55,585 bases of DNA from an uncultured Planctomycetales bacterium. Lineage in GTDB: Bacteria; Omnitrophota; Gorgyraeia; Aquiviventales; Aquiviventaceae. Below the pieces are notes generated by a model that saw only the letters and a list, made by a program, of their open reading frames with translations, made no database searches and was not told the DNA's origin. Positions 9,038 to 53,816 of the stretch are shown here, in pieces. Both the position numbers and the translations under genes were made by a program. How positions within the stretch are numbered: the first letter of the stretch is position 1; each line of letters opens with the position of its first letter. The stretch covers positions 1 through 55,585 of the forward strand of contig CAYJRJ010000003.1 in assembly GCA_964372775.1 (NCBI GenBank), given 5' to 3'.

Positions 9038-12000
9038 TTATCTCGAGCGGCGCGTCTCTCTCGCGCTCGCAACTTTCCCGTCGAGCTCCTGCGTCCGGCT
9101 CACGCCGCGTGTTGGTGCTGTGCTCGTGATCTCCAGGGCCGGGTCGAGCCGCCAGGTCGGCCCCGCGGCGTCGCCCGCGGCGGCCATCGTGATGTCGCCA
9201 CCGGCGCCACCTGATGCTGGGGTCGTTCGTTTCGGCAAGGGCAAACCGGAGGTGTAGAGCCCACTCTCAAAATCATCGATGGCGCGTGTCGCCGTTACCC
9301 CGCCAAGTGCCTCGACCTTCTTGTCGAGGACCCGCGTCACATCCTCTTTCGATGCAACGCCTAGCCAGAGCGCGGCCAGTGCGTCCTTCGCTTCCCCATC
9401 GCTCGTGTGGGCGTCAATCAGGTCTTGCACCGTTGGTCCATCCGTGATACGTGCGAGGCGATCATACGCACCCGCGACCAGTTGAGCCACCCCGGCCATG
9501 CCCAAAACCGTGCCTTCGCTGCCGGTCTTCCACACCGGCGAATCCGGCCCGCGGCTGACCGGACCCTGCGCGGCGGCCATCTTGATCTCGCCGCCCTTTC
9601 CAGGCGCAGGCTCAGGATCGCGCGGCACGGGCGCGGGCTCCCACGCCTCGGCATCGGGCAGCGGCGCATCGGGTGCGGAGCCGTCGAGCTGGAGACGAAT
9701 GAGGTTGGCGGTCAACTGCACCAAGTGCTCCCGATTGCCGTAGAGCATGCGCAGGCCGCGCCAGTGCGTGCTCGAAATCCGGATGCCGAATTCGCTCTCC
9801 ACGTTGGCTAGAAACAGATAGAGGCGCTTGGCGTCGTGCCGCAAGACCCCCGCCCCTATTTCAAACTCGTTATCGGCCGCCCATTGCGTCAGCAGGCGAT
9901 CCACCGCGGCACGCAGCGCCGCGTCCGAAAGTCCTGCGAGCCGGGCGCGCGCGGGCGCCAACGTCAACCGTCGGATTTGCTCCGAAAGCTCCGCCAGGAG
10001 CCCCCCGGACGGGGCCGGCTCTCCGCCGAGCCATAACCGCACCCGAGCAGCCGATTGCCGTGCCACGCCTGAGACCTCAAACGCCGTGAGGCCCCCATAC
10101 CCTCCGCGGTGGATGAGAATTCCACCCTTATATAAAGCGTCAGCTAGACGCTCAGCCGCAGTGGTCCTCATCTTCAGGGCGCGCGCCAGCGCGGCCACGT
10201 TGACCGGACCCCGCCGGCGCCGAAGGAACACCTCGAGTGCTTTTAAGAGCGGGCCAGTGCTGAGGCTCTCGCGACCTCCCGGCCTGGCCATGCCCCGCGG
10301 TTCATCCTCGGTCTTGCTCGTCAGCTCCAGGCGCGGATCCAGCCGCCACTGTGGAATCGCAGCCTCACCTGCGGCGGCCATCGTGATGTCGCCGGCCAGC
10401 AACGCTTGGTGCGCGGCGAGCTGGCGCGCATGGGCCTCACGGATGATGGACGGCAGCCGATCCGTGTGGAAGCCGGGTTGAGCCAGCCACTGCTCGCGAC
10501 GCTCGAACTCGCCGGTCCACTGTGCGGCATCATACGAGAGCGCTTGTTCCACGCGCTCACGGCTGACGCCGACTGACTCGAGCGCCTCGAGCTTCAACGA
10601 CTCGACCGTCGGGACGGCACCGATCGGTGTATTCACCGCAACGGCCGTGGGATCCTGCTTGACCCGCCGGATGATCCACTCGAGGACAGAAAAGTTTCGG
10701 CTGTAGCCTGGCAGGAGGAACTGGCCATCAGCATCCTTGCGGAACCAGTTCACGTGAAAGACCGTCGGCGGATGCGGCAAGGACGAGAGGACTCGGAATT
10801 GGTGGGCCGCATAGGAGGCTTCGTCATAGGAGAAGAAGGGCCGCTGCGCGAACGGATCCGGGCGGAACTCCGGCGCGCCCTCCTTGGCCGCCGTGGTGAA
10901 CGCCCCCATCAAGAGACCATCTGCCACTCCGCTCGCCAGGTCGGGCAGCTGCCGAACGAACGGTTCAAAGGTGTGACGGCCGCCAAAGAGCATGAAGCTA
11001 ATCGGCACGCCCTCGGGGTGATCCCAGTCAGCCGGGCGCTCGGCTTCAGGACGGCTGGCCACGTGGCCGATCCATGTCGGCGCGTTGGTAATCCTCGTCG
11101 TCACGCGGGAGTTCGGATGCGCCCAGGGCTTGTTGCGATCTTCCGGCGAGCGATCGCGAATGGGCGTGCCGGTCCAGTCGCGCCAGCCTTCCTCGGTCGT
11201 CATCTCGCCGCGGTCAAGGCGCGCACGCTCGGCGCCGGCCTCGGTGTAGGGCGCTTCATCCGTGCGCCCTTCCCACCACATCTGCTCAACGATCAACTCC
11301 CCCTGCGCGTCGCGCACAAATTTCGCCGCGACGTTAGTGAAGAGGGCGCCAGAGTTCTCCCCCATGGCGCGCATCGCGTTGGGGTTCGTGTTCGAGTTGG
11401 TCATCGGCACGACGCCGAAGAAGCCCCACTCGGGGTTGATCGCCCGCAGGCGGCCATCGGAGCCCGTATGCAGGTGGGCGAGATCATCGCTGACGATGAA
11501 CGTTTCGTACTCCTCCTTGAACTCATCGGGCACCTCGATCATGGCCAGGTTGGTCTTGCCGGAGGCGCTGGGAAACGCGCCGGTGCCGTAGATCGTCTCG
11601 CCGGTCTTCTTGTTGCGAATCCCGATGATCAGCATGTGCTCGGCGAGCCAGGAGCCTTCCTGCCTCGCGCGATACATTGACAGGCGCAGACTGCCGAATT
11701 TCTTCGGGCCGAGCGCGTTGCCCCCGTAGGCCGAACCGAACAAGTACGCGACCCCCTCATCAGGCACCGCGACGAAGTAGCGCTCGTCGTCAGCGCCGCC
11801 GCGCTTGATCGCATCGAGGTCGCCAGTGCTGTGAATGATGCGGTCGAACGTTTGGCCCTGAGCAACGCGCTCTTTCGCGGCCTCGAGCGCGACGCGGCCG
11901 ACTTTGTAGAGCTGGATGAGGTTGAGGGCCGCATACCGGTTGTCGGTGACTTGAATCCCGACCTGCCGGTTGGACGAGTCGACCGGCCCGGCGATATACG

Positions 12001-12661
12001 GGACGACGTAGAGCTTCTTGCCCTTCACGGTACCCGCCATCTTCACCTTGACCGCGGGGATCAGCTCATCGGTCGGCCGCCAGTTGTTGAAGAGGCCGCG
12101 GTCGCTTGCGTTGCGGGTGGCGACAAACGTGCGCTCTTCCGAGCGTGCGGTATCCTGCGGGTGCGAGCGCGCGTAGTAGTTGCCATCACGAGTGCGCCAG
12201 AGGACACCGGCGGCGACCTCCTCCTGCTGCAGGCGGGCTTCATCGGCCTCATCCACGAACTCAAGGCTCTCCGGATCCAGGAGCATGATCTGGTCGAGCA
12301 AGAACGCTTCGATCTGCGGCTCGCCGATGTTGAGCGCCTCGACCATCGTCTTGGCGCGTGAGAGACCCTCTGCGGTCACGCGATCAGGAAGCGGGGGAGT
12401 GGGCACAGGGGCAATCGGAACAGCGGGTGCAACCGGTACGCCGGCGGCGTTGGCGAGCTGGCGCAGCTCCTGCTCGATGCGTTCCTCGGCATCGTTGCTG
12501 GGGTTGGCGCGCGTGCCGCCCGCGCGCAAAGCCCACGCGGATGGCATGGAGGAGCACAGCATCGCAACAGCCAGCACCAGATGAACAAACGCTCGGCACC
12601 GTCCGAGGTGCCGGGCGTTCTTCGATCGAGCCTGCATGATGGCTGCGAGCACAGCGCGCAT
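9038..12661 (-). CDS. Signal-peptide-bearing GTP-type PEP carboxykinase-like protein fused to a ~450-aa C-terminal extension
   Basis: ORF track, 1207 aa. N-terminus FVHLVLAVAMLCSSMPSAWA. See the domain feature below. The tail contains a wHTH-like segment (LLKALEVFLRRRRGPVNVAALARALKMRTTAAERLADALYKGGILI) and three copies of a GDITMAAAG motif. Confidence 0.85.
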   Translation of the reverse strand: MRAVLAAIMQARSKNARHLGRCRAFVHLVLAVAMLCSSMPSAWALRAGGTRANPSNDAEERIEQELRQLANAAGVPVAPAVPIAPVPTPPLPDRVTAEGLSRAKTMVEALNIGEPQIEAFLLDQIMLLDPESLEFVDEADEARLQQEEVAAGVLWRTRDGNYYARSHPQDTARSEERTFVATRNASDRGLFNNWRPTDELIPAVKVKMAGTVKGKKLYVVPYIAGPVDSSNRQVGIQVTDNRYAALNLIQLYKVGRVALEAAKERVAQGQTFDRIIHSTGDLDAIKRGGADDERYFVAVPDEGVAYLFGSAYGGNALGPKKFGSLRLSMYRARQEGSWLAEHMLIIGIRNKKTGETIYGTGAFPSASGKTNLAMIEVPDEFKEEYETFIVSDDLAHLHTGSDGRLRAINPEWGFFGVVPMTNSNTNPNAMRAMGENSGALFTNVAAKFVRDAQGELIVEQMWWEGRTDEAPYTEAGAERARLDRGEMTTEEGWRDWTGTPIRDRSPEDRNKPWAHPNSRVTTRITNAPTWIGHVASRPEAERPADWDHPEGVPISFMLFGGRHTFEPFVRQLPDLASGVADGLLMGAFTTAAKEGAPEFRPDPFAQRPFFSYDEASYAAHQFRVLSSLPHPPTVFHVNWFRKDADGQFLLPGYSRNFSVLEWIIRRVKQDPTAVAVNTPIGAVPTVESLKLEALESVGVSRERVEQALSYDAAQWTGEFERREQWLAQPGFHTDRLPSIIREAHARQLAAHQALLAGDITMAAAGEAAIPQWRLDPRLELTSKTEDEPRGMARPGGRESLSTGPLLKALEVFLRRRRGPVNVAALARALKMRTTAAERLADALYKGGILIHRGGYGGLTAFEVSGVARQSAARVRLWLGGEPAPSGGLLAELSEQIRRLTLAPARARLAGLSDAALRAAVDRLLTQWAADNEFEIGAGVLRHDAKRLYLFLANVESEFGIRISSTHWRGLRMLYGNREHLVQLTANLIRLQLDGSAPDAPLPDAEAWEPAPVPRDPEPAPGKGGEIKMAAAQGPVSRGPDSPVWKTGSEGTVLGMAGVAQLVAGAYDRLARITDGPTVQDLIDAHTSDGEAKDALAALWLGVASKEDVTRVLDKKVEALGGVTATRAIDDFESGLYTSGLPLPKRTTPASGGAGGDITMAAAGDAAGPTWRLDPALEITSTAPTRGVSRTQELDGKVASARETRRSR
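10412..12379 (-). other. GTP-dependent PEPCK homology region (aa ~95-750)
   Basis: ARSHPQDTARSEERTFV, FPSASGKTNLAMI (P-loop; canonical FPSACGKTN from memory), IVSDDLAHL, NPEWGFFGVVPMT, FHVNWFRKDADGQFLLPGYSRNFSVLEWI. Confidence 0.8.
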
Positions 12662-12690: not shown

Positions 12691-15600
12691 TTATACTCCG
12701 CTGGTGGCCGCTGCGATGGTCGTCTGGTAGCTGCGAACCTCGGCTTCCGTTTCAGGCTTGATGTCGAGGTTCTGCGGCACAACCAGATCGCCTTCTTGGA
12801 GGAGCTTCAGCTGGGCCGCCAGCTTCGGATTGAGCTTGCCGCCGGCCGCCGCAGCTTCTACACCGGCGACAATGGCCGGCGCGGCCGAAGCGATCTGGCC
12901 CGTTTCCTTCGCAGGTTCCACAGCAACAGCAGCAACTTCCTCTGGCTTTGGAGAGGCCTCCTTAATTGCCTGCGCCCAAGCCGACGGACCGATAACACTT
13001 CCCACGATGCTGCCGGCAACCCCGGCGCTCAAGAGCCCCAACAACTCACCGGGCTGCTGCTGCGCGGGAAGGACCAGATCAAACATCCCCAAGTCGAACT
13101 TCGCTGCTCCGTTCGATGCGGATGGTATCGCTTTGGCGAGCGCCTCGGCCTTCCGCTGCGCCTCATCGGGCGTTGACGCGCCATCGACGACCAGCGCGAA
13201 GTGAATCGCCTTCGACCCGTTACCGAGGACCTGGCGCAGTTGGCGCTGGATCAGCTCCTGCGCGATCGCCGCGTCAGGCCCCTGGGCATAGACCGAGGAG
13301 TGCACCACGATCCACCGAGGATTCGCTAGATCCGCAGCCTGCTCCGCGACCTCAGGCGAGATCGTGTAGTCGGTTGCATCGGGGAACTGCTCCACGAGTC
13401 GTCCCTGCTCCACCGCGGCGACCGTCGTATCGCTCACCGCCACGGCAAACGGGGAGTCCTTGGCGACGATCTTGTTGCGCGTCTTGCGAGCCGGATACGC
13501 CGCCTCGATGTCCCGGTCGATATTGGGCCCGTGCGGCGTGAAGCCGCCCTGCGAGTTGATCCACATTTCGTTGAACCGGACCACGCGCTCACGCGCCGCG
13601 TCAAATGCCGCGCCGGCATACATATCCTCGCCGACCGCCAAGCCCGTGGACGCATCCGCCTTCACCGTGCCATCCTGAGCGACCGCGTAGCGAATGGAGA
13701 TTTCGATGGGGTTGCTCCACTTCACGGCGACCGCGGTGTCGCGGCCTTCCGGCCGCATCGCCACGTAGTGCGATCCGCGGGCGTTGCCGATGTTGACCCG
13801 AACCGCCACTCTGGTGATGGCCCGATGCAGCGAGGCAAAGGGGTCAATCGCGATCATGACCGAATCATCCTTGCCCACGTACTCGCCACCCGTGACCGCG
13901 GCCAGCTTTTCCGTGGACACTGAGGCGATATAGTCTCCGCCGAGAAACTCGGCCACCTTGTACAGCTCCACGAGCCGTGGCCGGACCTGCTCGAGCACCG
14001 TGTCAAGCGGATCGTTCAGGATGGCGCGTTCCCACGGGTTGAGCAGCTCGGGGGAGCGGCCTTTCTTGTGGTCCGCCTGCCACGCGGCCACCTCTTCCTG
14101 CAAGTACGTTTTGCGCTGCTCATACTCGGGCCGTAGCGCCGACAGCTCGCCCTCCACGCGCGCATCAATCGCCGCGACCTCCTCCGGCGTCAGATCGCTG
14201 ATCCAGCCGGCGCGCTTCTTGGTCCAGATGCGCTTGATGTTGTGATCGTTCGCAGCGCTCAGCAAGGAAAGTAGCTGCGCGTCTTCGGTCTCCGCGTCGA
14301 TAAACGCCCGCGAATTGGGCAGCACGTCCCACGTTTCGAAGACGAGTCCATGTTGGATCATCTCTAGAAACCGTTCCAGTTCTCTCGTGTGTTGCAGATC
14401 GCTCCCGTGTTTAGACCACACTTCATCAACTAAGTCTCTGACGAACTTCTTCCGATTCTCTTCCGGGACATCGGGCATGCGCTTTGCAACCTCTTCATCG
14501 AGACTAGTGGAGAGTCCTGCGAGGTCAGGTATTCCCCCAGGAAACGCCTGTCGTAAGAGGAGGGAGAGGCGGGTGGCCCAGTAGGCCGGGTAATTGAACG
14601 CCCCGGCTGCGCCCTTGTCGTTGGCGATCACACTCCACCGCGGGAATCGTCCAAGCTCTCCTGCCGAGAGCGTCTTTTCGGCAAACCCGATGCCCATGCC
14701 CCGCACGTTGCCCGGCAGCAGGAGTTCGACGATCTTGCCGCTGGACTTGCCCTGCTTGAAGTTCTCGTACCCCCGACGGATTTCGCCCATGCGCGCCGCT
14801 TCTTCCGGCAGCGACTGGATCTCTTCTGCCAGCGCCTTGATGAAATCGTCGTTGAGGTTGGCGTAGACGTCCAGCTTGCCCGCCTTGATGAGCTCAACGA
14901 CCTTGGGGTCCACGAGATCTTGCATGAACCCGTACAGCTTGTACTTCAACCGCTGCGACACCCAGCCCGCCCGGAAGAACGTGGCCCAGGCCAGGCCGTG
15001 AATCTCGGCGTTGTCCACGCCGCGCTTGTGGAACAGGATGAAATGGTTATCATCGCCGGCCGCCGCCACATCGAAGCCGTCGATGAGCCCCTGCTTCACC
15101 GCAACTTTCAAGCTCGCGATGAAGGCTGCGCGATAGATCTTGTACGGCAGCTGGTGGCCGGTCGCCCCGATATCCGCCTTCAGGTCGCTTACCGTGACGA
15201 CCTGGCTCGCGTTCGACGCTTTCAGAATAGGATCGATCCTGACGATGGGCTTGCCGTCGGCTCCCACGACCGTCTTGCCTTCGGTGTCACGCTCGGTCAC
15301 GGCGGGAATCTCATGGTAGCGAGGCCCCATGGCTTCCACGGTGTGCTCCGCCCGCCGCGTCGCCTCCGGGGCGGTGACGGCCGGCTGGAACGAGCCCAAC
15401 AGCATCAGGCTGTCATGCACAAACCGCTCGTCCTCACGGGTCGTCTGCACATCGGTGCTGATAGCGACCTGGTCGTGCACTTCGCTGTGCGGAATCCGGC
15501 CGTTGTCATACGACTGGTACGTGTAGGAGACCATCTGCACGAGCCCGTCATCTGCGAAGGTGCCGGCGTCCGCCTCCTCGAGGGTCACGGGGATCACGCC

Positions 15601-17589
15601 GCGGTGCACAGTACCCTCCCGTGGACCCGAGGTGGTGAGGTAGAACTGCGTCGTCGCCGACACGAACTCGCCGATCGCCGGAGCACCCGACTGCTGCTTG
15701 GCGACGAAGATCGGGCTGAAGCTCTCGCCGTCTTGCGTTGCGTCGCCGACCTGATCCACCATGACGTTGAGCATCGGGTCCTGATCTTCAGGCGCCTTGG
15801 TCACGTCATAGAGCCGCGAGCCGGGCCGCGGCAGGACTTTGGTGATGACCCACTCGGTCTGGTCGTCCACCAGCGTATGGATGTAGGGCGCGCTGCGCGG
15901 AAAGACAAACCGGTAGGCGGTGCGGTCGGTCTTGCCCGCGAGAATGTCCGCGATGCGCTCGACGACGACAATGTAGCCTGGACCTTCTTGCTCCGCTTCA
16001 TAGGCGAGATTCGCCGCGTTGAACTCGAGGTCTTGCGCAAGCGCCTCGTCGCCCTGCTCTTTGGCCGTTCGGTATTTCTCGTACTCCGCGCGCAGCACCT
16101 TCAACTCATCCTCCCGGATCCCCTCGATCTTCAACTGGTTCTCGATCGCCTCATTGAGCAGGCGCATGATGACCCAGTTGAAGGCCGCCGGGCCGCCGCC
16201 GAGTGCTGCGCTGACGTAGATCGGCTCAGCGCCGCGCTCGTTGAACGCGAACTCGCCAGTGCGGATGCGCAGCGCCTTGGCTCGCTCAGCGTACGGACGT
16301 GGTGTCAGTTTGGTCCCGGGAGTTCGAAACCCATCGATGAACTCCGCTTCGCGAGTCCAGAGCTCTTCAAACGCTTTGGTGAGCCGCGGCCGCTCTCCGG
16401 ACGGGGTGAGATCCACCACCACATCGCTTACCAAATCCACAACGAGTCGATCTACCTCAGGGTTACGCTGGGGGCCGTTGGAGTGCACCTCGAGCAAGAC
16501 GTGAGAGCCAAAGCGCCTGACCAGCGCATCCTTAATCGTGCCTGCTTGGGCCGCCTGGGCAAGACGCGTCTCAATGTTCTTGACCACATACTCCGGCACA
16601 CGGCCGCCCTCAAAGAACCGCCCAAGGCTTATGAGGTATGGCACAAGCTGCACGCGCTTGGCGAGCTTCTCCGCGTTCTTGCGGGCCGCGGTCTTGCGCG
16701 CGGCGATCTGCTCGGCCCGATGCGCCTCGTTCGAGGCCGCCTGCGCTTGCTGGGCCGCTTGGGACTTTTCGAACACGCGCGCGATCGCGCCGTTGACCGC
16801 TTCCGCTACGGAGGAGGGCTCATCGAGATGGAAGCCGCGAATGGCATCGTTGACTTCATGCCGCAGGAGGAACACGAGGGCATCGTGGCCCGTCGGACCC
16901 TCTGCGATCAACCCTTCAATTTGTTCAAGGCTCAGGTACACGCTCTTGGGTCCGAGCACGTTGCGCACCTGTTGTCCCAATCCTGTCACCGCCTCCTGCC
17001 ATCCCTGGAATGCGTGCTGGCCTGAGTAGGCCACCAGCGCCTGGTGGGTGGGGGTGCCGCGGATGCCTTCGGTCACCAGCGCCGGTGTGCCGGGCTCATC
17101 GAGTACGAGAACGAATCGTCCAATTTCGCTGGCCTGGATACTCTCGACGCCGGGGAGATTGGGGGAAACCATGATGGCATTGACGACATGCGAGAGTTGT
17201 CCCTGCGCGCGCGCCAGTCGCTCCTTCAGCGCGCCCTTCTGCGCATCGGAGAGCGCGCGACCGGTGCGGGCTTCATGCCGGCGAGCGTAGTCGGCTACCA
17301 GATCATCGGTTGAGCGGGACCCGGGCCCAATCAGCGGGAACGCCCGGCCTTCGGCGAAGGCGGCGGAGACGATCTCCTTGCCCATGCGCACAAGGTTCGC
17401 TCTGCCAAGTTCGGTGAGGTTGGCGCCCGGAGCGCCCCAGACCCACGCTCCGTCCTCCCGAATCTTCTCGCCGGTGACCCCGCTTTGGCCTGCACCCTCC
17501 GGGCGCATGGCATACGCCGCGGGGGTCAGCTGCGAGAGTGACAGCGCCCAGGCGAGTACTACGGCCACCGGTCGTGTCCACTGGCTCAT
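12691..17589 (-). CDS. Signal-peptide-bearing 1632-aa protein embedding a class V fructose-1,6-bisphosphate aldolase/phosphatase-like domain
   Basis: The ORF track frame is 12691..17643. I place the start at ATG 17589 (MSQWTRPVAVVLAWALSLSQLTPAAYA) because AGGAGG lies 6 nt upstream, and only 19 nt separate it from the stop of the preceding gene. Confidence 0.85.
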   Translation of the reverse strand: MSQWTRPVAVVLAWALSLSQLTPAAYAMRPEGAGQSGVTGEKIREDGAWVWGAPGANLTELGRANLVRMGKEIVSAAFAEGRAFPLIGPGSRSTDDLVADYARRHEARTGRALSDAQKGALKERLARAQGQLSHVVNAIMVSPNLPGVESIQASEIGRFVLVLDEPGTPALVTEGIRGTPTHQALVAYSGQHAFQGWQEAVTGLGQQVRNVLGPKSVYLSLEQIEGLIAEGPTGHDALVFLLRHEVNDAIRGFHLDEPSSVAEAVNGAIARVFEKSQAAQQAQAASNEAHRAEQIAARKTAARKNAEKLAKRVQLVPYLISLGRFFEGGRVPEYVVKNIETRLAQAAQAGTIKDALVRRFGSHVLLEVHSNGPQRNPEVDRLVVDLVSDVVVDLTPSGERPRLTKAFEELWTREAEFIDGFRTPGTKLTPRPYAERAKALRIRTGEFAFNERGAEPIYVSAALGGGPAAFNWVIMRLLNEAIENQLKIEGIREDELKVLRAEYEKYRTAKEQGDEALAQDLEFNAANLAYEAEQEGPGYIVVVERIADILAGKTDRTAYRFVFPRSAPYIHTLVDDQTEWVITKVLPRPGSRLYDVTKAPEDQDPMLNVMVDQVGDATQDGESFSPIFVAKQQSGAPAIGEFVSATTQFYLTTSGPREGTVHRGVIPVTLEEADAGTFADDGLVQMVSYTYQSYDNGRIPHSEVHDQVAISTDVQTTREDERFVHDSLMLLGSFQPAVTAPEATRRAEHTVEAMGPRYHEIPAVTERDTEGKTVVGADGKPIVRIDPILKASNASQVVTVSDLKADIGATGHQLPYKIYRAAFIASLKVAVKQGLIDGFDVAAAGDDNHFILFHKRGVDNAEIHGLAWATFFRAGWVSQRLKYKLYGFMQDLVDPKVVELIKAGKLDVYANLNDDFIKALAEEIQSLPEEAARMGEIRRGYENFKQGKSSGKIVELLLPGNVRGMGIGFAEKTLSAGELGRFPRWSVIANDKGAAGAFNYPAYWATRLSLLLRQAFPGGIPDLAGLSTSLDEEVAKRMPDVPEENRKKFVRDLVDEVWSKHGSDLQHTRELERFLEMIQHGLVFETWDVLPNSRAFIDAETEDAQLLSLLSAANDHNIKRIWTKKRAGWISDLTPEEVAAIDARVEGELSALRPEYEQRKTYLQEEVAAWQADHKKGRSPELLNPWERAILNDPLDTVLEQVRPRLVELYKVAEFLGGDYIASVSTEKLAAVTGGEYVGKDDSVMIAIDPFASLHRAITRVAVRVNIGNARGSHYVAMRPEGRDTAVAVKWSNPIEISIRYAVAQDGTVKADASTGLAVGEDMYAGAAFDAARERVVRFNEMWINSQGGFTPHGPNIDRDIEAAYPARKTRNKIVAKDSPFAVAVSDTTVAAVEQGRLVEQFPDATDYTISPEVAEQAADLANPRWIVVHSSVYAQGPDAAIAQELIQRQLRQVLGNGSKAIHFALVVDGASTPDEAQRKAEALAKAIPSASNGAAKFDLGMFDLVLPAQQQPGELLGLLSAGVAGSIVGSVIGPSAWAQAIKEASPKPEEVAAVAVEPAKETGQIASAAPAIVAGVEAAAAGGKLNPKLAAQLKLLQEGDLVVPQNLDIKPETEAEVRSYQTTIAAATSGV
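13489..15201 (-). other. FBP aldolase/phosphatase (archaeal-type class V FBPase) homology region with two large insertions (track aa ~815-1385)
   Basis: Compared from memory with the Sulfolobus enzyme: VSDLKADIGATGH / VIKADIGSLAGHH; AAGDDNHFILFHKRG / HVGDDLQLIMTHTRG; LPGNVRGMGIGFAE / FSGNVRGLGPGVAE; VIANDKGAAGAFNYP / FMADKTEPGAYNLP; GGEYVGKDDSVMI / AGKYVGKDDPVMI; ARGSHYVAMRP / MRGSHYGPLMP. Confidence 0.65.
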
Positions 17590-17608
17590 CGAAAACCTCC
17601 TGTTGGTT

Positions 17609-19192
17609 TCATTGTTGATTGGCGATCGCCATGACCTCATCAAAGCTGCCGAGGCCGCTCTTGTATTTGACCACGGCGTGATAGAGTCGTTCGTCAGTCG
17701 GGGTGCTGATCTTCGGCGTCACGACGACCGCCCCGACTCCGCGATCCTTGAGCAGCTGGGTAATCCGGGGCCCATGAAAGCCGCCGGTGATGAGGACCGC
17801 GAGGGGCTCGCCGGTCTCCTGCAGTTTCTTCAGGGTGTTGTTCACGAGCGCCGCATCGCGCTGCTGCGCCACGTCATAGAAGCGCTGGACCGCGCGCAAG
17901 GCTGAGGCGAGTTCTGACAATCCTGTAAATGGCTTGGGGGATAGGCCGTGGTGGGCGAGCTGAGCCTGGAAGAACGTCTCCCAGCCGCTGATGGTCGAGG
18001 ACCAGTCGAGTGTGGCCTGCCGCTCGTACTCCGCAGGCGAGAGCTGGAAATCCAGCAGCTTCTCGACCAGATCAACGTCCTGCTGAATCCGCGTCAGCGC
18101 CTGGCTCTCCGATGTCACGCTCAGCGCGTCCCGCAACTGCGCTGAGGCGGCGTCGAGCTCATCGGCCAGGTCAGTCGCGACGATCGCGTCGCTGGCAGCG
18201 AGGTAGCGCGTGTACCGGCTCAGCGCGGGGTAGGCGGCGAGATCGATGCGGGAGGTTGCGGCCAGTTCTTCGAGCAGCGTGTAGAACTCCACCGGCTTTG
18301 CGGTGCCCTGCTTCATCGCAGCACTCGTGGCCACCAGCCGCTCTAGGTCCGCCTCGCCGGCCTGCTCACTGAGCTGACCAATGAGGCGCTGTTGCTGTGC
18401 GCGCGCTTCTTCCACATTGATCTCCGATTCGAGACGGTGGACCTCAAGAAACCGCTGCAGATGGGGATAGCGCTCCAACGCGCTGCCTGCGCGCTCGGCG
18501 AAGGCGGCGAGCGCCTGCGCATAGTCGGCCAAGTCCAGTTCGTGCGCCTCAAACGCCTTGGCCTTCGCAGCGAGCTCCACCGCCGCCGGGTTCATCAGCC
18601 GAGACTCGAGCTCCTGGCACGATGCCAGGATGCTCTCCAGTAGAGGGCGGGCCGAGGCTCTGATCGACTCGGTCTCGAGAAACACCTTGACGTTCGCATC
18701 GTACAAGGCGCGCTGCTCCACGCCCCAGAGGATGAGCGGGTCATCCGAGACGATGTCCAGATACTCTTCCGCGCTGATGATGCCGGCCTTCAGATATTTC
18801 TCGGCCACCTGCCGGCGATTCTCCGGCGGGCCGTATTTGCGCAGATAGGTCAAACTCGCGTCGCCTTCACTGCCTTCAACCAGGATCAGCTTGAGGCCGT
18901 GGTGCGCAATGAGCTCTTCGAGGATCGTGATGATGTGCTGCTGGCCTTCGTAATTGGTGTGGGCTTCCTGGATGTGGACGACGATCTGGGGGTGCGAGGC
19001 GGCAGCGGCGTTCGGTTCGTGGGTCTCAAGGATGTAGCCGGCTTCTGACGGGATTCGAATATCGGCGGCGCGGGAGACTTCTGAGGATCTCAGGGAAGAT
19101 GCGGGGGATTGCGCGTAAGAAAGCGCTACCTTGCCGGCGCAAATAAAAATGGCCGACCAGGCCAACATACGTAGACGAGCCCCTTTCCCCAT
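17609..19192 (-). CDS. Signal-anchored 527-aa hypothetical protein; possibly TraB/Tiki/ChaN-like (GxxH) fold
   Basis: The ORF track frame is 17609..19369. I place the start at ATG 19192 (MGKGARLRMLAWSAIFICAGKVALSYAQSP) with AGGAGG 9 nt upstream, because the track's upstream 59 codons lie in an AT-rich promoter region. Motifs IVVHIQEAH...LILVEGS and LAVLITGGFHGPRI resemble the TraB/Tiki family, a weak call. Confidence 0.75.
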   Translation of the reverse strand: MGKGARLRMLAWSAIFICAGKVALSYAQSPASSLRSSEVSRAADIRIPSEAGYILETHEPNAAAASHPQIVVHIQEAHTNYEGQQHIITILEELIAHHGLKLILVEGSEGDASLTYLRKYGPPENRRQVAEKYLKAGIISAEEYLDIVSDDPLILWGVEQRALYDANVKVFLETESIRASARPLLESILASCQELESRLMNPAAVELAAKAKAFEAHELDLADYAQALAAFAERAGSALERYPHLQRFLEVHRLESEINVEEARAQQQRLIGQLSEQAGEADLERLVATSAAMKQGTAKPVEFYTLLEELAATSRIDLAAYPALSRYTRYLAASDAIVATDLADELDAASAQLRDALSVTSESQALTRIQQDVDLVEKLLDFQLSPAEYERQATLDWSSTISGWETFFQAQLAHHGLSPKPFTGLSELASALRAVQRFYDVAQQRDAALVNNTLKKLQETGEPLAVLITGGFHGPRITQLLKDRGVGAVVVTPKISTPTDERLYHAVVKYKSGLGSFDEVMAIANQQ

Positions 19193-19325: not shown

Positions 19326-22300
19326 TCAAATGCCTCGCTGGACAGCACGAACGGATTGCACGATCCCATTCAGTCGAGTGGAGTTAGGCATACTCGCTTC
19401 CTGGCGGCGCCACTCCATCCACTGCAGCACCAGGCTTGCCGCCGTCATGACGAGCGCAGCACCCCAACTCCAGACGCTCTGCGCCGCACCCAGCAGCGCG
19501 TCATTGAGCCACACCACAGCCGGCACCCGCAGCTGCATGACGGACACCACCGGTGTTGTGCGCATCCCCGAGAGCGCGTAGTTGCGCAGCGCAATCCCCA
19601 CACCGCCCAATACACTCGCGGCGCCCAGCAGCGCTGCCGCCGGCACGCTCCAGCCGCCGAGCGCGACAGGCGCGTGCCACGCGAGCGATGGCAGGCTCAC
19701 CCCGTAACCTGCCGCCGCGCCGATCGCCATCCATACGCCCACGCCCAGCAGCGCCGCAATCAGCGCCCAGAAGTGGACCAACCAGCTGCCTACCCTGGCA
19801 GGATAGCGGCCGTCCTGATGCTGCACGCGGTTGAGCGCCACCACATTCCAAGTCGTTAGCAACACCGCCAGCGTTGCCAATCCGGCGCCCAGCCAAGTCT
19901 CCAGATTCCACAGGGGCCATTCCATGCTGTGCAGCCAGATCGTCCCGACCAGACCCGCGAGCGCGGCTGCGATCTCCGCCGCGTGCCGCCGGCTGAGCTT
20001 GCCGGAGAGGGCATGACGCGCCGCAAAGTACAACGCCGCCAGCGGCACCTGCGCTCCCAGAATCGTAAAGGTCAGGGCCGGGTCAACGAAGCTCAGCGAC
20101 CACGCCACGAGCGGGCCGGCGAGGGCCATATTCATGGCCAGTATCCACTGGTCTCTCAGGCGCACGCGGGTGAGCATGGCCAGGGCGGTCTGCGTGAACC
20201 GGCGCGGCGAGTAGGCGCTCGAGGCCGTCCAGAACAGCGGCATGACCACGACATTCAGCGCCAGATAGAGCACGTGCGCCGGCGCCCACCCGAAGACCTC
20301 GACCAGCGGCTTCCAGATCACCGCTTCCACGGCGCCGATGGCCACGCGCGCCAGCGCCGCCGCCACACCCTGCCAATAGGTCGCCCGCGCGGGACGCGCC
20401 AACGGCGCTGCCACTCGGTCGTCCGTCATTTTCAGCTCAACCGTGCTGGATCGCTCGACGGTCAAGGGACGCGTCGGATCAAACGCGCCGAGCCGATCGT
20501 GCAGCCGGTGGCCGTCCACCCAGACCTCGAGTGCCCCCAGATCCCGGCCCTGAGCCATGGCGTGCGCGAGCTGATCGCCCAGCGAGAGAATCAGCGAGTC
20601 GTGGATGGCCTGCGCATGCGTGAGCCCCTGCACTACAATGCTGATGGCCCCGTCGGCCAGCGGCCGGCCATCGGTGCCAAGGCCGCGCGCGAGCGCCGGG
20701 TTCACGATGCCGTCCGAATCGATCTCAGCGAACCAGCCTCCCATGCGCTCCATGCGCAATCCCTCCCGGACATTACCCGAGGCGCTGGTCGTTGAGATGA
20801 AGACCAGGGGCCGCGCCGCGCCGGCCGGCGCGTGCCGAAGCTGAGCTTGGAGCCGGCTCACAAACGCCCGGCCGCGCCATGTCGGCAACAACTGCTCCAG
20901 CAGAAAGAGACGGCCCAGGAAGAGCCAACGCAGGGCCCGCTGCAGCCGCACCCATCGCGCGGCTCCTTTGGTCAGTTGCAGTGCGGCATTGATGAGCAGC
21001 AGCCCGTCCGGCTGGCTCGGCCCGCCGTTGGCCCAGTGGCGCAGTGCCAGCATTCCTCCGACGCTGCTGGCCACCATGATCACGCGGCCCGGGCGCTGCG
21101 CGCGCAGATGCGCGATCACATCCGCGACGCCGCGCTGCACCAGCGTCTCAACCGGCCGATGCAGGCCGCGCCGAATGTGGTGCAGATCCACAAGCTCCAC
21201 GCTGGCCACGCGCAGTCGGCTGGAGAGCTGGCGCGCGACACCCTGCATCCAGTAGACATCCACCTGGCGCCGCCCGAACGATGCCTGGAGCTTGCTCAGC
21301 AGAAACTGCTGCAGCTCCATCATGACCATGCCGGGCAGCATGACGACGGTGACATCCGGCACCTCGGGAGCATCGGGCCCACCGATGAAGATCTGCTGGC
21401 CGGCCGGCGTGACGTCCTCGAGGAGACGGCTGGACGGCGACTCGATGGAGAGATCCTCTCCTGCCACCACGCTCCAGAATTGGCGCCAGCTGCTTCCAGG
21501 GTCGCTGACCAGCCAGGCGAGCGCCATCGCTGAAATACCCAGCACCAGCAGCGGCCATCCAGTCGCGCCAGCAAGGCTCAAGCCGATGCCGGAGATGGCG
21601 ACGATCGCTCCCGTGATGATCATGAAACTCGGCCAGCGGGCCAGCGCTGCCCGCAGCGAGCGGAGCAGATTCGGGAGAAAGGTGATGAGCATCCCCACCG
21701 GCGCGGCGAGGGCCAGCTGGCTGAAGGCTGAAGGCTCAAGGCTGAAGGCTAACCCGGGGCCAAAAATGGTATCAGATACCATTTTTCCGGAGCCATCGCC
21801 GGCCAGCGCGGGGGCGGCCAAGACGAGGATCAACAGCAGGACAACGGGAAGAAGCCCGGCCACTCGGAGCGCCTTGCGCAACTGCCGGATCCGCTGCGGG
21901 CTGACGCCAAACATCTTGGCGTGCCGCGCCGATGTCCATGTCGGATGGTTCCGCATCTGATCCAGCAGGACGTCACGATCAACTTTTTGCGCTGGGCCCT
22001 TCGAGGAATACGGAATGCCATGGCGGAGCATCCACCGCCGCATAGTGGACTGGCTCACCTGATAGCTGTCCGCGAGCCGTTTCTGTGTCGCATCGGGATC
22101 AGCGTCAACACGAGCCCTGAGCTCCTCGCCGGACGGCCGCACGCGCGGCCGTCCAGAGAGCCACCGGGCGGCTGCGAGGACGATGAGCAGCGGCAGCGTG
22201 GGAGGCCCGCCGAAGCGATACCACGCCATGGCCCGCAGGAATCCCGCATGGAGGAGTCCGGTCATCAGGAGGAGAGGGTTGCCGGCGCCCCGCTCCGAGT

Positions 22301-52166: not shown

Positions 52167-52238
52167 CGCCGCCGGCGCGGGAGTGGTGGAAGCCGTCAGC
52201 GGTGTCTTGGCTTCGCCTTCAAGCCTCCGGGCGAGCGC

Positions 52239-52267
52239 TTGACGCGCAGAGTCCTCTACGGTATCCT
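52239..52267 (+). promoter_or_regulatory. Cassette 1 promoter TTGACG-17-TATCCT
   Basis: Counted directly. AGGAGG at 52275-52280 follows. Confidence 0.5.
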
Positions 52268-52292
52268 TGACCACAGGAGGTTGTGTGCCACC

Positions 52293-52556
52293 GTGCGACG
52301 TGTTCAGATCTGGTGGGATGACGAGACGGCGGAGCACCTTGCCAGGCACGGGGTGGCGCCAGAAGAAGCGGAAGAGATCTGCCGGGTGCGCCCCTACATC
52401 TTGCGTACGCGGCGGGGCCGTTACCTGGTCCTTGGATACACTGGAGCGGGGCGATATCTGACTGTCATCTTGGAGCCAGTGGGAGGCGGCCGGATGAAAA
52501 TCATTACGGCGCGAGCGATGACGCCGCCTGAACGCCGACGGTATCTGGAGCGTTAA
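52293..52556 (+). CDS. brnT: BrnT-like (DUF497) type II toxin
   Basis: VRRVQIWWDDETAEHLARHGVAPEEAEEI...GRYLVLGYTGAGRYLTVIL...KIITARAMTPPERRRY. Taken with a GTG start; an in-frame TTG at 52281 is an alternative. The ORF track frame is 52131..52556. Confidence 0.7.
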   Translation: MRRVQIWWDDETAEHLARHGVAPEEAEEICRVRPYILRTRRGRYLVLGYTGAGRYLTVILEPVGGGRMKIITARAMTPPERRRYLER

Positions 52557-52559
52557 CCC

Positions 52560-52793
52560 ATGAAAAGTCATATTCCAACGTTCAAATCCTTGGACGAGGA
52601 GCGCCGATTTTGGCAGACGCACGACGTCACGGAATTCTGGTCTGAACTGACCCCGGTGACTCTGAAGTTTGGAACGTCCAAGCGTGCGCGGTCGATTCAG
52701 TTGACCGTCGTTGAGTTGCGCGCCCTCCAAAGCCTCTTGAGGAAGCTTGTGACCGCTGAACGACCGCCTGCCGAATCCCACCGGAAACTGTAA
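52560..52793 (+). CDS. brnA: BrnA-like antitoxin
   Basis: MKSHIPTFKSLDEERRFWQTHDVTEFW.... It starts 3 nt after the brnT stop, in the toxin-first order typical of brnTA. Confidence 0.7.
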   Translation: MKSHIPTFKSLDEERRFWQTHDVTEFWSELTPVTLKFGTSKRARSIQLTVVELRALQSLLRKLVTAERPPAESHRKL

Positions 52794-52799
52794 TCCGAA

Positions 52800-53060
52800 C
52801 TGCCGCACCTCCCGCCAGATCGCGCGCCAGTCGGTCGAGCCATCCGGCGTGAGCCACTGCCGCCCGAAGAGCCGGCCGATCCCCGCAATGAGGTGGAGGC
52901 CGCTGTGGGCGAACTTCGTGTCGTCATCCGCCCATATTTTTTCCAATGTCCCGCGCAGCCAGGTCCACGCCTGCCGCGCCCAGGCGAGCAACTGCGGCAC
53001 TGATGGCACGCCGCCGTAGACGTCGCCAGTCGGAGCAGCCGACCCCGGCGTTGGCTGGTC
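52800..53060 (-). repeat. Conserved 5' coding fragment, copy C (261 bp)
   Basis: 259/261 identical to copy B. Encodes ...QPTPGSAAPTGDVYGGVPSVPQLLAWARQAWTWLRGTLEKIWADDDTKFAHSGLHLIAGIGRLFGRQWLTPDGSTDWRAIWREVRQ. Confidence 0.95.
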
Positions 53061-53079
53061 CGCCGTCGGCGCGGCGCTG

Positions 53080-53109
53080 TTGACACGAGTCGTCGACGTG
53101 GCGTATACT
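53080..53109 (+). promoter_or_regulatory. Cassette 2 promoter TTGACA-18-TATACT (CGTCGACG palindrome in the spacer)
   Basis: Counted directly. The predicted TSS is only a few nt before ATG 53120, so the mRNA is leaderless or nearly so. Confidence 0.5.
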
Positions 53110-53119
53110 TTTGGACGTG

Positions 53120-53798: not shown

Positions 53799-53816
53799 GG
53801 CCCGCACCCCTAACGC

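What the first reader, a model, noticed from the sequence alone, without database searches (positions are those of the whole stretch)
12691..17589. FBP aldolase/phosphatase fold with apparently intact catalytic motifs buried in a 1632-aa signal-peptide protein
Track aa ~815-1385 align by eye to the archaeal-type class V FBP aldolase/phosphatase. The aligned motifs include KADIG, GDD, NVRG, NDK and RGSHY. They also include the YVGKDD segment, which from memory carries the Schiff-base lysine.

The domain carries two large insertions, of roughly 60 and 130 extra residues, the latter visibly lower in GC around 14.3-14.5 kb. It is preceded by ~800 aa of unknown sequence and by a Sec-type signal peptide (VAVVLAWALSLSQLTPAAYA).

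A gluconeogenic enzyme that needs cytosolic FBP or triose phosphates is not expected behind a signal peptide or inside a protein four times its normal size.
Basis: partly seen in the sequence, partly recalled or inferred. Interest (0 to 1): 0.75.

Follow-up and report, generated by a model that had tools for sequence, protein, structure and literature searches.

The report
Exported tandem FBP aldolase/phosphatase protein
A bacterial gene encodes a 1632-residue, cysteine-free protein with a secretion signal that holds one dead and one apparently live copy of the sugar-making enzyme FBP aldolase/phosphatase. It sits in an operon of giant proteins that together carry a sugar-synthesis pathway seemingly destined for outside the cytoplasm.

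Summary
Window 12691-17589 (- strand) is one real gene. Residues ~797-1380 match the FBP aldolase/phosphatase family (Pfam PF01950, E 7.5e-47). A confident AlphaFold model (pLDDT 88) matches all seven solved FBPA/P structures (TM 0.75-0.83), and every family-invariant residue is kept, including Y1237 and K1240-D1241-D1242.

- There are three insertions (~63, ~71 and ~88 aa), not two.
- The "unknown" N-terminal part contains a second, catalytically dead FBPA/P-fold domain (aa ~311-770).

The dead-plus-live tandem behind a Sec-type signal peptide recurs in about 60 diverse long relatives. These are fused to TIM, PGK, GAPDH, PEPCK, PGI, PGM, transaldolase or a sugar nucleotidyltransferase.

In five loci the gene lies between a giant multi-enzyme ORF with a ~530-aa Tiki/ChaN-like gene and a large protein carrying PEPCK, ICL, malate synthase or enolase.

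The proteins almost lack cysteine (0 of 1632 here). Identifiable exceptions are the catalytic Cys of GAPDH and ICL. This argues for active enzymes adapted to export.

Two preprints mention enzyme domains in Omnitrophota giant proteins, but I found no description of this family. Where it acts, and how nucleotide-dependent partners could work there, is unresolved.

The parts
12691..17589 (-). Complete CDS, 1632 aa plus stop: signal peptide, N-module, dead FBPA/P domain, live FBPA/P domain, C-terminal domain
   Evidence: ORF list. Seven full-length homologues at 47-64% identity share the architecture. An identical protein was recovered from an independent assembly.
17596..17601 (-). Shine-Dalgarno AGGAGG, 6 nt upstream of the ATG
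   Evidence: Sequence read directly.
17509..17589 (-). Sec-type signal peptide, aa 1-27, predicted cleavage AYA|MRP
   Evidence: n-h-c layout with A-x-A, conserved in P0001-P0008 and in most of the 54 long relatives that have an SP-like N-terminus. Judged by inspection and hydropathy only, not by SignalP.
16660..17508 (-). N-terminal module, aa 28-310, function unknown; ends in a long helix
   Evidence: No Pfam hit. Conserved in a subset of the long family (jackhmmer). The AF2 model shows an alpha/beta region and helix 232-283 of the model.
15280..16659 (-). Domain A, aa ~311-770: degenerate FBPA/P-fold domain with all catalytic motifs lost (GDD>GSH, DK>LG, RGS>REG; no GKDD)
   Evidence: An HMM built only from canonical enzymes gives collinear weak hits. 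jackhmmer started from aa 28-797 recruits canonical FBPA/Ps. An AF2 model built without canonical sequences hits all seven FBPA/P PDB entries, E 2e-18 to 2e-16, TM 0.66-0.74.
13450..15201 (-). Domain B, aa ~797-1380: FBPA/P domain with all family-invariant residues intact
   Evidence: Pfam and NCBIfam. Alignments with canonical enzymes. AF2 pLDDT 88 and Foldseek TM 0.75-0.83 to 3t2c/3r1m/1umg.
14716..14904 (-). Insertion 1, aa 896-958: helical, between QD (Q95 equivalent) and GNVRG, inside the catalytic loop region
   Evidence: E-INS-i alignment, translation, helices with high pLDDT in the AF2 model.
14356..14568 (-). Insertion 2, aa 1008-1078: helical, after GAFNYPxY; lies in the low-GC stretch
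13945..14208 (-). Insertion 3, aa 1128-1215: long helices, before STEKL...YVGKDD
13864..13881 (-). YVGKDD, aa 1237-1242: equivalents of Tyr229, Lys232 (the Schiff-base lysine, from memory of the 2011 structure papers) and Asp233/Asp234
   Evidence: Translation. Residue numbering derived from the 3t2b/3t2g alignments. 3t2g is titled 'Y229F variant'.
12694..13449 (-). C-terminal domain, aa 1381-1632: Rossmann-like alpha/beta fold, function unknown
   Evidence: Found in ~25 relatives, in most full-length ones at the extreme C-terminus. AF2 pLDDT above 90. Only weak generic Foldseek hits.
9038..12661 (-). Downstream operon partner: 1207-aa GTP-PEPCK with signal peptide and a ~450-aa C-terminal extension
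   Evidence: Pfam and NCBIfam, PDB search, 29-nt intergenic gap, Cys only inside the signal peptide.
17609..19192 (-). Upstream operon partner: ~527-aa signal-peptide protein, ChaN/Tiki-like
   Evidence: Conserved directly upstream of the FBPA/P gene in the window, L002, L010 and L011. The Pfam ChaN hit is weak, E 0.007.
19326..55535 (-). Upstream giant ORF, 12,069 aa, multi-enzyme, with ~20 or more hydrophobic segments

Best explanation
**Shown.**
- The gene encodes a modular protein made of a cleavable-looking Sec signal peptide, an unknown N-module, a catalytically dead FBPA/P-fold domain, an FBPA/P domain and a Rossmann-like C-terminal domain.
- The second FBPA/P domain keeps every invariant catalytic and metal-binding residue and carries three helical insertions.

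**Inferred, fairly strongly.**
- The second domain is a working FBP aldolase/phosphatase. It condenses DHAP and GAP through the K1240 Schiff base and then hydrolyses FBP to F6P with Mg2+.
- The dead copy probably serves as a built-in partner (pseudo-dimer) in place of a second identical subunit.

**Inferred.**
- The protein is one step of an operon-encoded set of signal-peptide or membrane-anchored multi-enzyme proteins. In this window these are PEPCK and a 12-kaa giant with 6PGL, TreT and GT1 domains. In relatives they also include ICL, malate synthase, enolase, PGM, PGK, GAPDH and TIM, and then PGI, PGM/PMM and an NDP-sugar transferase.
- Together these would convert C2-C4 acids to hexose phosphates and sugars.

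**Inferred, least certain.**
- The set is exported across the cytoplasmic membrane and acts in an extracytoplasmic space: periplasm or compartment, cell surface, or another cell.
- The final site, and the source of ATP, GTP and NADH there, remain unknown.
For: **Family and fold.** Pfam E 7.5e-47. Foldseek top seven hits are all FBPA/P, TM 0.75-0.83.

**Catalytic residues.** K804, D806, H812, D846, D847, Q890, D891, D991, K992, K1240, D1241, D1242, G1272 and S1273 are invariant in a 22-sequence alignment that includes 10 canonical enzymes. Y1237, R1271 and N961 are invariant in the 46-sequence alignment.

**Mobile loops.** The low-pLDDT segments of the model fall on GNVRG, on the loop before YVGKDD and on the C-terminal loop. 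From memory, these are the mobile catalytic loops of the solved enzymes.

**Internal control.** The adjacent paralogous domain A has lost all the motifs. This shows what relaxed constraint looks like in the same protein.

**Pathway partners.** Relatives fuse this tandem to neighbouring pathway enzymes: TIM-PGK-GAPDH, PEPCK plus adenylate kinase, TAL-PGI-PGM, and an NTP-transferase. Gene order is conserved in five loci.

**Export.**
- The start codon is backed by a Shine-Dalgarno site.
- The A-x-A signal peptide is conserved, and long relatives with an intact Met start mostly carry an SP-like N-terminus (54 by a crude hydropathy scan).
- There is no other TM-like segment apart from one Gly/Ser-rich stretch in the C-terminal domain.
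- Cysteine is excluded. This protein has 0 of 1632. The mature PEPCK has 0. The giant has 2 of 10,899. A cytosolic GH94 in the same window has 1.22%.
- The long family has a median of 0.04% Cys against 0.82% in canonical enzymes.
- P0058 has 1 Cys in 6393 aa against 0.64% in its chromosomal neighbours, P about 5e-17.
- Among the Cys that remain in relatives, the identifiable ones are the catalytic Cys of GAPDH (SCTT) and ICL (KKCGH).
Against: - The score is below NCBIfam's equivalog cut-off (154 against 520 bits). By that rule it is not a standard FBPA/P.
- Insertion 1 lies within the catalytic loop region and could alter or abolish one of the two activities.
- No activity, localisation or cleavage data exist. 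No SignalP or DeepTMHMM run was possible.
- PEPCK, PGK, GAPDH and NTP-transferases need nucleotides that a classical periplasm lacks.
- Cysteine depletion is uniform along the giant ORF even though its ~20 hydrophobic segments should put some domains on the cytoplasmic side. Depletion may therefore reflect something other than location.
- No secretion system is visible in the window.
- The pseudo-dimer idea was not modelled.
Confidence: 0.5

Rival explanations
1. Membrane-tethered cytoplasmic metabolon. The N-terminal hydrophobic segment is an uncleaved anchor, or is not used for translocation. The enzyme domains stay on the cytoplasmic face next to the giant polytopic protein and channel gluconeogenic intermediates into NDP-sugars for glycan, trehalose or coat synthesis.
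For: - Nucleotide-dependent partners (PEPCK, PGK, GAPDH, NTP-transferase, and adenylate kinase in P0061) make biochemical sense only where ATP, GTP and NADH exist.
- The adjacent giant ORF has many TM-like segments and GT1/TreT domains.
- The 2026 Omnitrophota preprint first proposed, then withdrew, an intracellular reading for such proteins.
- Uniform Cys depletion on both putative sides of the giant weakens the argument from location.
Against: - The h-region is short (~13 aa). A helix-breaking Pro and A-x-A follow it, conserved across homologues. This is typical of cleaved signal peptides rather than anchors.
- The charge distribution does not favour an N-out, C-in orientation.
- Extreme cysteine exclusion with retention of only the catalytic Cys is hard to explain for cytoplasmic proteins.
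Confidence: 0.2
2. Effector set delivered into another cell. After Sec export, and possibly further secretion, the enzymes act in the cytoplasm of a prey or host cell. There they divert its C2-C4 metabolites and nucleotides into sugars that the producer then imports.
For: - Similar giant multi-enzyme proteins occur in predatory or epibiotic Omnitrophota. One was reported to be more abundant in cells attached to prey (papers read).
- Delivery into another cell would solve the nucleotide problem.
- Sugar-binding ABC and GH94 phosphorylase genes lie beside the cluster.
- A Cys-free sequence suits transit through an oxidising space.
Against: - No injection or secretion machinery is visible in the window or the related loci examined.
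- The lifestyle of this 65%-GC lineage is unknown. The only label available for a relative is 'Planctomycetales'.
- Moving proteins of 1.6 to 12 kaa into another cell is unprecedented.
Confidence: 0.15
3. Non-catalytic use of the fold. The FBPA/P domains serve as structural, adhesive or sugar-phosphate-binding modules, like surface-displayed 'moonlighting' glycolytic enzymes, and the pathway-like domain content is incidental.
For: - One of the two FBPA/P domains is clearly dead.
- The large insertions and the sub-equivalog score indicate divergence.
- From general knowledge, glycolytic enzymes are often reported on bacterial surfaces.
Against: - All catalytic residues of domain B are invariant across a family only 25-60% identical, while domain A lost them.
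- The catalytic Cys of GAPDH and ICL are kept in otherwise Cys-purged relatives.
- The fusion partners are consecutive pathway steps, not random enzymes.
Confidence: 0.1
4. Artefact: a chimeric assembly or a run-through of separate genes.
For: The source is a metagenome-type contig. The neighbouring giant ORF contains two identical 87-aa repeats that could reflect an assembly problem.
Against: - The same architecture occurs in at least seven independent samples.
- An identical protein is present in a separate assembly.
- The frame is continuous and well conserved across all domain junctions.
Confidence: 0.01

Closest known systems
Canonical FBP aldolase/phosphatase (class V FBPase; Pfam PF01950; e.g. 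Thermoproteus neutrophilus 3T2B-3T2G, Sulfolobus tokodaii 1UMG/3R1M)
   Same: Same fold (Foldseek TM 0.75-0.83). Same invariant residues, including the YxGKDD Schiff-base segment, the GDD, KxDxG..GH, QD and DK motifs, and RGS. Presumably the same two-step chemistry.
   Different: - Canonical enzymes are ~360-390 aa, single-domain and have no signal peptide. From memory they are homo-octameric and cytosolic.
- This protein has two copies of the fold, one dead and one live.
- It has three helical insertions totalling ~220 aa, extra N- and C-terminal domains and a Sec signal peptide, and it contains no cysteine.
- It scores 154 bits against NCBIfam's 520-bit equivalog cut-off.
'Archaeovorin' and 'multi-enzyme metabolic' giant proteins of Omnitrophota (West-Roberts et al. 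2023, bioRxiv 10.1101/2023.11.21.568195; 2026 preprint 10.64898/2026.06.07.730766)
   Same: - Very long proteins with signal peptides and/or many TM helices that carry sugar-metabolism enzyme domains.
- The 2023 preprint explicitly lists TIM, GPI, fructose-1,6-bisphosphatase, PGM/PMM and FBP aldolase domains 'predicted to be extracellular'.
- The giant ORF next to this gene fits that description.
   Different: - Those papers deal with proteins of at least 10-30 kaa in Omnitrophota and do not describe this family.
- Here the FBPA/P unit is a stand-alone 1.6-kaa protein.
- No SecA_DEAD, C39 or NUDIX domains were detected in the window's giant at E<=1e-3.
- Relatives carry ICL and malate synthase, which were reported absent from all 176 complete Omnitrophota genomes.
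- The lineage has 65% GC, and the only organism label for a relative is 'Planctomycetales'.
Eukaryotic glycosomes and glyoxysomes (compartmentalised glycolysis/gluconeogenesis and glyoxylate cycle)
   Same: A whole block of central carbon enzymes (ICL, malate synthase, PEPCK, the lower glycolytic enzymes and FBPase) carries a common targeting signal. This suggests relocation of a pathway rather than of one enzyme.
   Different: The resemblance is only an analogy. Targeting here uses Sec-type signal peptides in a bacterium, the enzymes are fused into giant chains, and no compartment has been shown.
Surface-displayed 'moonlighting' glycolytic enzymes of bacteria (enolase, GAPDH, FBA and others)
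   Same: Central carbon enzymes found outside the cytoplasm.
   Different: Moonlighting enzymes are the ordinary cytosolic proteins and have no signal peptide. Here there are dedicated, signal-peptide-bearing, Cys-purged, fused paralogues with conserved active sites.

Membership tests
FBP aldolase/phosphatase (Pfam PF01950 FBPase_3) | Significant match to the family HMM above the gathering threshold | tested here: met
   160.7 bits against a cut-off of 25, E 7.5e-47, in 3 stretches.
FBP aldolase/phosphatase (NCBIfam NF041126, equivalog) | Full-length score above the equivalog cut-off (520 bits) | tested here: not met
   154 bits. The match is broken up by three insertions.
FBP aldolase/phosphatase | Family fold | tested here: met
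   AF2 pLDDT 88. Foldseek top seven hits are all FBPA/P structures, E 6e-18 to 1e-16, TM normalised to target 0.75-0.83.
FBP aldolase/phosphatase | Catalytic and metal residues (T. neutrophilus D11, H18, D52, D53, Q95, D132, K133, Y229, K232, D233, D234; roles from memory) | tested here: met
   The equivalents are D806, H812, D846, D847, Q890, D991, K992, Y1237, K1240, D1241 and D1242. Numbering comes from the alignment. Invariance was checked.
FBP aldolase/phosphatase | Single-domain, ~360-400-aa protein without a signal peptide | tested here: not met
   The protein has 1632 aa, a signal peptide, two copies of the fold and extra domains.
FBP aldolase/phosphatase | FBPase and aldolase activities; homo-octamer | not testable with these tools
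   Needs a recombinant protein.
Multi-enzyme metabolic giant proteins / Archaeovorins (Omnitrophota preprints) | Length at least 10 kaa (2026 catalogue) or at least 30 kaa (2023 definition) | tested here: not met
   This protein has 1632 aa. The adjacent ORF has 12,069 aa, which passes the 10-kaa bar only.
Multi-enzyme metabolic giant proteins / Archaeovorins | Signal peptide and/or TM helices together with several distinct metabolic enzyme domains in one chain | tested here: inconclusive
   This protein has a signal peptide but only FBPase_3, present twice. The criterion is met by the neighbouring ORF and by relatives P0099, P0012, P0075 and P0061.
Multi-enzyme metabolic giant proteins / Archaeovorins | SecA_DEAD, C39/S8 peptidase, NUDIX and methyltransferase domains typical of Archaeovorins | tested here: not met
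   None was found in the window's giant ORF at E<=1e-3. GT1/TreT is present.
Multi-enzyme metabolic giant proteins / Archaeovorins | Omnitrophota origin | tested here: inconclusive
   The only organism title obtained for a relative is 'uncultured Planctomycetales bacterium'. One partial relative is labelled Methylomirabilales. The window's own taxon was not recovered.
Sec (SPase I) secreted proteins | N-terminal n-h-c signal peptide with A-x-A at a genuine start codon | tested here: met
   Judged by inspection and hydropathy only. The start is supported by the Shine-Dalgarno site. SignalP was not available.
Sec (SPase I) secreted proteins | Actual translocation and cleavage | not testable with these tools
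   The only indirect support is cysteine exclusion.

The most novel reading that the evidence does not exclude
A lineage of PVC-type bacteria runs a near-complete glyoxylate, gluconeogenesis and sugar-nucleotide pathway outside the cytoplasm. The site could be an enlarged periplasm or organelle-like compartment, the cell surface, or a target cell. The pathway would be built from Sec-targeted, cysteine-purged enzyme fusions, and the dead-plus-live FBPA/P tandem is one obligatory, irreversible step. That would be a bacterial counterpart of glycosomes and glyoxysomes, and it would imply a supply of ATP, GTP and NADH beyond the cytoplasmic membrane.
Probability: 0.3. Interest if true: 0.9.

Novelty: new variant of a known kind. 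Interest (0 to 1): 0.72.

Why it matters
- **A new form of a supposedly minimal enzyme.** FBPA/P is regarded as an ancient, minimal gluconeogenic enzyme of archaea and deep-branching bacteria. Here it appears as a dead-plus-live tandem with large insertions, behind a signal peptide, in roughly 60 sequence clusters at 50% identity.
- **A whole pathway, not one odd protein.** Its fusion partners and gene neighbours show that a whole pathway has been rebuilt this way.
- **A testable handle.** Almost all cysteines have been removed. Those that can be identified among the remainder are catalytic. This suggests the enzymes work and that they face an oxidising or exported environment.
- **A tractable entry point.** The 'multi-enzyme giant proteins' are currently only catalogued in preprints. 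A 1.6-kaa soluble member can be expressed and assayed, unlike the 10-150-kaa giants.
- **Consequences for annotation.** Metabolic reconstructions of these lineages may wrongly count such exported copies as cytosolic pathway steps.

Tried and rejected
- **hhalign, N-terminal region against the FBPA/P region.** It gave no signal (probability below 1%). The profiles had only 7 sequences. The duplication was later shown by a canonical-only HMM, jackhmmer and structure, so that negative result was a sensitivity failure.
- **BLASTP among the window's cluster proteins.** No shared modules were found.
- **Third database search, with the N-terminal profile.** It returned a single hit, apparently because the word filter saturated.
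- **hmmalign-based table of conserved columns.** It was unreliable because the insertions break the alignment. I used the MAFFT alignments instead.
- **An 'HxY..LxP' junction motif shared by the giant ORF and the FBPA/P N-termini.** It did not generalise.
- **'LR' shortly after the signal peptide.** It is enriched (26 of 54 against 15% expected) but not universal.
- **Taxonomy of the window.** Cluster and contig look-ups gave nothing usable.
- **Literature searches.** Searches for the catalytic-residue papers and for this architecture found nothing specific. Residue roles therefore rest on memory, on PDB titles and on alignments.
- **Function of the C-terminal domain.** Foldseek gave only weak Rossmann-type hits.
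Full report
**1. The observation.**
- The minus-strand ORF 12691..17589 is open for 1632 codons from its ATG.
- That ATG is preceded by AGGAGG at a 6-nt spacing and lies 19 nt after the stop of the upstream gene. Seven full-length homologues begin at the same Met. The hydrophobic N-terminus is therefore the true N-terminus.
- Pfam FBPase_3 matches with E 7.5e-47. NCBIfam's FBP_aldo_phos model matches with E 6.6e-45, but at 154 bits, far below its 520-bit equivalog cut-off.
- phmmer finds the solved T. neutrophilus and S. tokodaii enzymes.
- GC dips to 0.54-0.56 at nt 14200-14650.

**2. Anatomy of the catalytic domain.**
- An E-INS-i alignment with ten canonical ~360-390-aa enzymes places the domain at aa ~797-1380.
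- It has three insertions (aa ~896-958, ~1008-1078, ~1128-1215) and one short deletion.
- The numbering of 3t2b can be read from the alignment. This maps D11, H18, D52, D53, Q95, Y229, K232, D233 and D234 onto D806, H812, D846, D847, Q890, Y1237, K1240, D1241 and D1242. The entry 3t2g, titled 'Y229F variant', shows F at that position.
- D806, H812, D846, D847, Q890, K1240, D1241 and D1242, plus D991 and K992, are invariant in a 22-sequence alignment spanning canonical and long forms. Y1237, R1271 and N961 are nearly invariant there and invariant in a 46-sequence alignment with 35 canonical enzymes.
- An AF2 model of aa 790-1632 has mean pLDDT 88. Its top seven Foldseek PDB hits are all FBPA/P entries, with E 6e-18 to 1e-16 and TM 0.75-0.83 normalised to the target.
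- The insertions are confidently helical.
- The few low-confidence segments fall on GNVRG, on the loop before YVGKDD and on the C-terminal loop. From memory of the 2011 structure papers, these are the loops that move between the aldolase and phosphatase states.

**3. The 'unknown' 800 residues.**
- An HMM built only from canonical enzymes gives a second, collinear series of weak hits at aa 331-386, 446-483 and 548-737. The same pattern appears in every homologue.
- jackhmmer started from aa 28-797 recruits canonical FBPA/Ps.
- An AF2 model of aa 28-800 was built from an alignment that contained no canonical enzymes (pLDDT 74.6). It again hits the seven FBPA/P structures first, with E 2e-18 to 2e-16 and TM 0.66-0.74.
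- In this copy GDD is GSH, DK is LG, RGS is REG and GKDD is gone. It is a dead paralogue.
- An early hhalign test missed this.
- Residues 28-310 and 1381-1632 remain unassigned. The C-terminal part is a Rossmann-like domain found in about 25 relatives, in most full-length ones at the extreme C-terminus.

**4. The family.**
- An exhaustive phmmer search of 1.84 billion representatives found 157 proteins at E<=1e-3.
- About 60 of them are 800-6393 aa long, and many of these score better than any canonical enzyme.
- About 40 of them show the dead-plus-live tandem. In most of the rest domain A is detected only in part or not at all.
- Of those starting with Met, 54 have an SP-like N-terminus by a crude hydropathy scan, many with an A-x-A-type site.
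- Partner domains are neighbouring pathway steps:
  - TIM-PGK-GAPDH-FBPA/P (P0099).
  - NTP-transferase-TAL-PGM/PMM-FBPA/P (P0012).
  - FBPA/P-TAL-PGI-PGM (P0075).
  - Adenylate kinase-PEPCK-FBPA/P (P0061).
  - FBPA/P-GAPDH (P0008).
  - Malate synthase inserted into P0006.

**5. Genomic context.**
- The window's genes are co-directional and tightly spaced. The order is: a 12,069-aa ORF, a ~527-aa signal-peptide protein, this gene, and a 1207-aa GTP-PEPCK with its own signal peptide.
- The 12,069-aa ORF carries 6PGL, GlnD-type NTase, PALP, TreT/GT1 and hydrolase domains and about 20 hydrophobic segments.
- The order giant / ~530-aa protein / FBPA/P protein / large enzyme-fusion protein recurs in independent metagenomes, complete in L002, L010 and L011 and partial in L004. 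The last gene carries:
  - Malate synthase, ICL, PGK and enolase in L002.
  - Enoyl-CoA hydratase, GAPDH, PEPCK, TIM, enolase and PGM in L004.
  - Malate synthase, TIM and PEPCK in L011.
- The ~530-aa partner has ChaN/Tiki-like motifs.
- The left flank of the window holds ordinary sugar-uptake and phosphorylase genes.

**6. Cysteine exclusion.**
- This protein has no Cys in 1632 residues.
- The PEPCK protein has two, both inside its signal peptide.
- The giant ORF has two in 10,899 residues.
- The cytosolic GH94 enzyme 7 kb away has 10 in 818.
- Across the long family the median is 0.04% Cys, against 0.82% in canonical FBPA/Ps.
- P0058 has 1 Cys in 6393 aa, while its twelve chromosomal neighbours have 0.64%, P about 5e-17.
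- Several of the few Cys left in relatives' large proteins sit in the GAPDH active-site motif (…SCTT…) and in the ICL KKCGH motif. Motif identities are from memory of the PROSITE signatures.
- I read this as two independent signals. Selection keeps the catalysis, and selection removes every dispensable Cys.
- From memory of work by Dutton, Daniels and Beckwith, removal of dispensable Cys is typical of proteins exported to an oxidising space.
- One caveat: depletion is uniform along the giant ORF, although some of its domains should be cytoplasmic if its hydrophobic segments are real TM helices.

**7. Mechanism.**
- Shown: the architecture, the fold, the intact site, the conserved signal peptide, the operon and the Cys pattern.
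- Inferred: domain B performs aldol condensation through the K1240 Schiff base and Mg-dependent dephosphorylation. Domain A is an in-cis structural partner. The protein is exported and forms the irreversible triose-phosphate to F6P step of a relocated pathway running from C2-C4 acids to sugars.
- Unresolved: the final location, and the supply of nucleotides for PEPCK, PGK, GAPDH and the NTP-transferases.
- Rivals are a cytoplasm-facing membrane metabolon, delivery into another cell, and a non-catalytic role. An artefact is excluded by independent assemblies.

**8. Relation to what is known.**
- Two preprints catalogue enzyme domains in giant Omnitrophota proteins. The 2023 preprint mentions 'fructose 1,6-bisphosphatase' and aldolase domains predicted to be extracellular. 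The 2026 preprint defines a 'multi-enzyme metabolic' class, and 94% of its 916 catalogued long proteins carry a signal peptide or TM helices.
- Neither preprint describes the FBPA/P tandem, the stand-alone 1.6-kaa form, the conserved operon or the Cys pattern.
- ICL and malate synthase, present in this system's relatives, were reported absent from all 176 complete Omnitrophota genomes.
- I therefore file it as a new variant of a known kind: a strongly remodelled FBPA/P that belongs to the little-understood class of exported multi-enzyme proteins.

Noticed in passing
window 9038-12661 (-): GTP-PEPCK embedded in a 1207-aa protein with a Sec-type signal peptide (…SSMPSAWA|LR). It has a ~450-aa C-terminal extension with two copies of a 26-aa motif, GDITMAAAG.A..P.WRLDP.LE.TS (nt 10316-10393 and 9122-9199). 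The mature chain has no Cys. The P-loop reads FPSASGKT, whereas from memory canonical GTP-PEPCKs have FPSACGKT.
   Followed up: partly
window 19326-55535 (-): A 12,069-aa ORF with ~20 or more hydrophobic segments. It has Pfam hits to 6-phosphogluconolactonase, GlnD-type nucleotidyltransferase, a PLP enzyme, TreT/GT1, alpha/beta hydrolases and HTH domains. Only 2 Cys occur in 10,899 aa.
   Followed up: partly
window 52800-54077 (-), aa 487-573 and 826-912 of the giant ORF: Two identical 87-aa copies, plus a third diverged copy at aa 1123-1163, of a Trp-rich repeat (…ADDDTKFAHSGLHLIAGIGRLFGRQWLTPDGSTDW…). They are separated by Arg/Ser/Pro-rich sequence. This is either a recent duplication or an assembly collapse. 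The true start of the giant gene is uncertain.
   Followed up: no
window 42453-44219 (-), aa 3773-4361 of the giant ORF: A tandem duplicate of a ~285-aa module (ungapped BLOSUM score 752) with no Pfam assignment at E<=1e-3.
   Followed up: no
window 34923-35072, 28839-28967 and 28269-28397 (-): A junction motif RGH(R/P)YA(G)L(E)P.SG.GFGGV recurs three times inside the giant ORF, each time followed by an Arg-rich stretch. The first copy is followed by a Tat-like TRRQALKWVGLGAGALVVAAS. It loosely resembles the 'AH(R/Q)YLRP..SG' sequence right after the signal peptide of several FBPA/P-family members. It may mark module boundaries.
   Followed up: partly
window 17609-19192 (-): A ~527-aa signal-peptide protein conserved immediately upstream of the FBPA/P gene in four loci. 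Its invariant motifs HIQEAHxNYExQ, LILVEGGxGD and AVLITGGFHxP resemble the ChaN/Tiki/TraB superfamily (Pfam E 0.007 only). It is a possible processing enzyme for the cluster's proteins.
   Followed up: partly
N-termini of the window proteins and of P0003-P0105: A short 'LR[PQ]' (or MRP/FRP) motif lies 3-20 aa after the predicted signal-peptide cleavage site. It occurs in 26 of 54 long family members against 15% expected. It is also present in the non-homologous neighbours (PEPCK: A|LRAGG; L002 5059-aa protein: SSLRAG; L004 6839-aa protein: DTLRTWG).
   Followed up: partly
L006 2098-8991 (protein P0008): In this distant relative (dead-plus-live FBPA/P, GAPDH, PP-binding) the motif RSE[AV]R occurs right after the signal peptide and again at five or six inter-domain junctions. 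This suggests recurring linker or cleavage sites.
   Followed up: no
window 19000-19450: The sharpest GC dip of the region examined (nt 10000-20000), 0.51-0.53 against ~0.64. It lies between the stop of the giant ORF and the likely start of the 527-aa gene, and could hold an internal promoter or regulatory region.
   Followed up: no
window 1-8000: Ordinary bacterial carbohydrate genes lie next to the cluster. They are a GH94-type glycan phosphorylase-like protein (3531-5987), an ABC sugar-binding lipoprotein (6103-7380), a 659-aa membrane-anchored glycosidase-like protein (864-2843) and a 194-aa secreted protein (2883-3467). These identifications come from reading the sequences, not from searches.
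   Followed up: no
window 8296-9072 (-): A 258-aa ORF overlaps the 3' end of the PEPCK gene and has no Pfam hit. It is unclear whether it is a gene.
   Followed up: no
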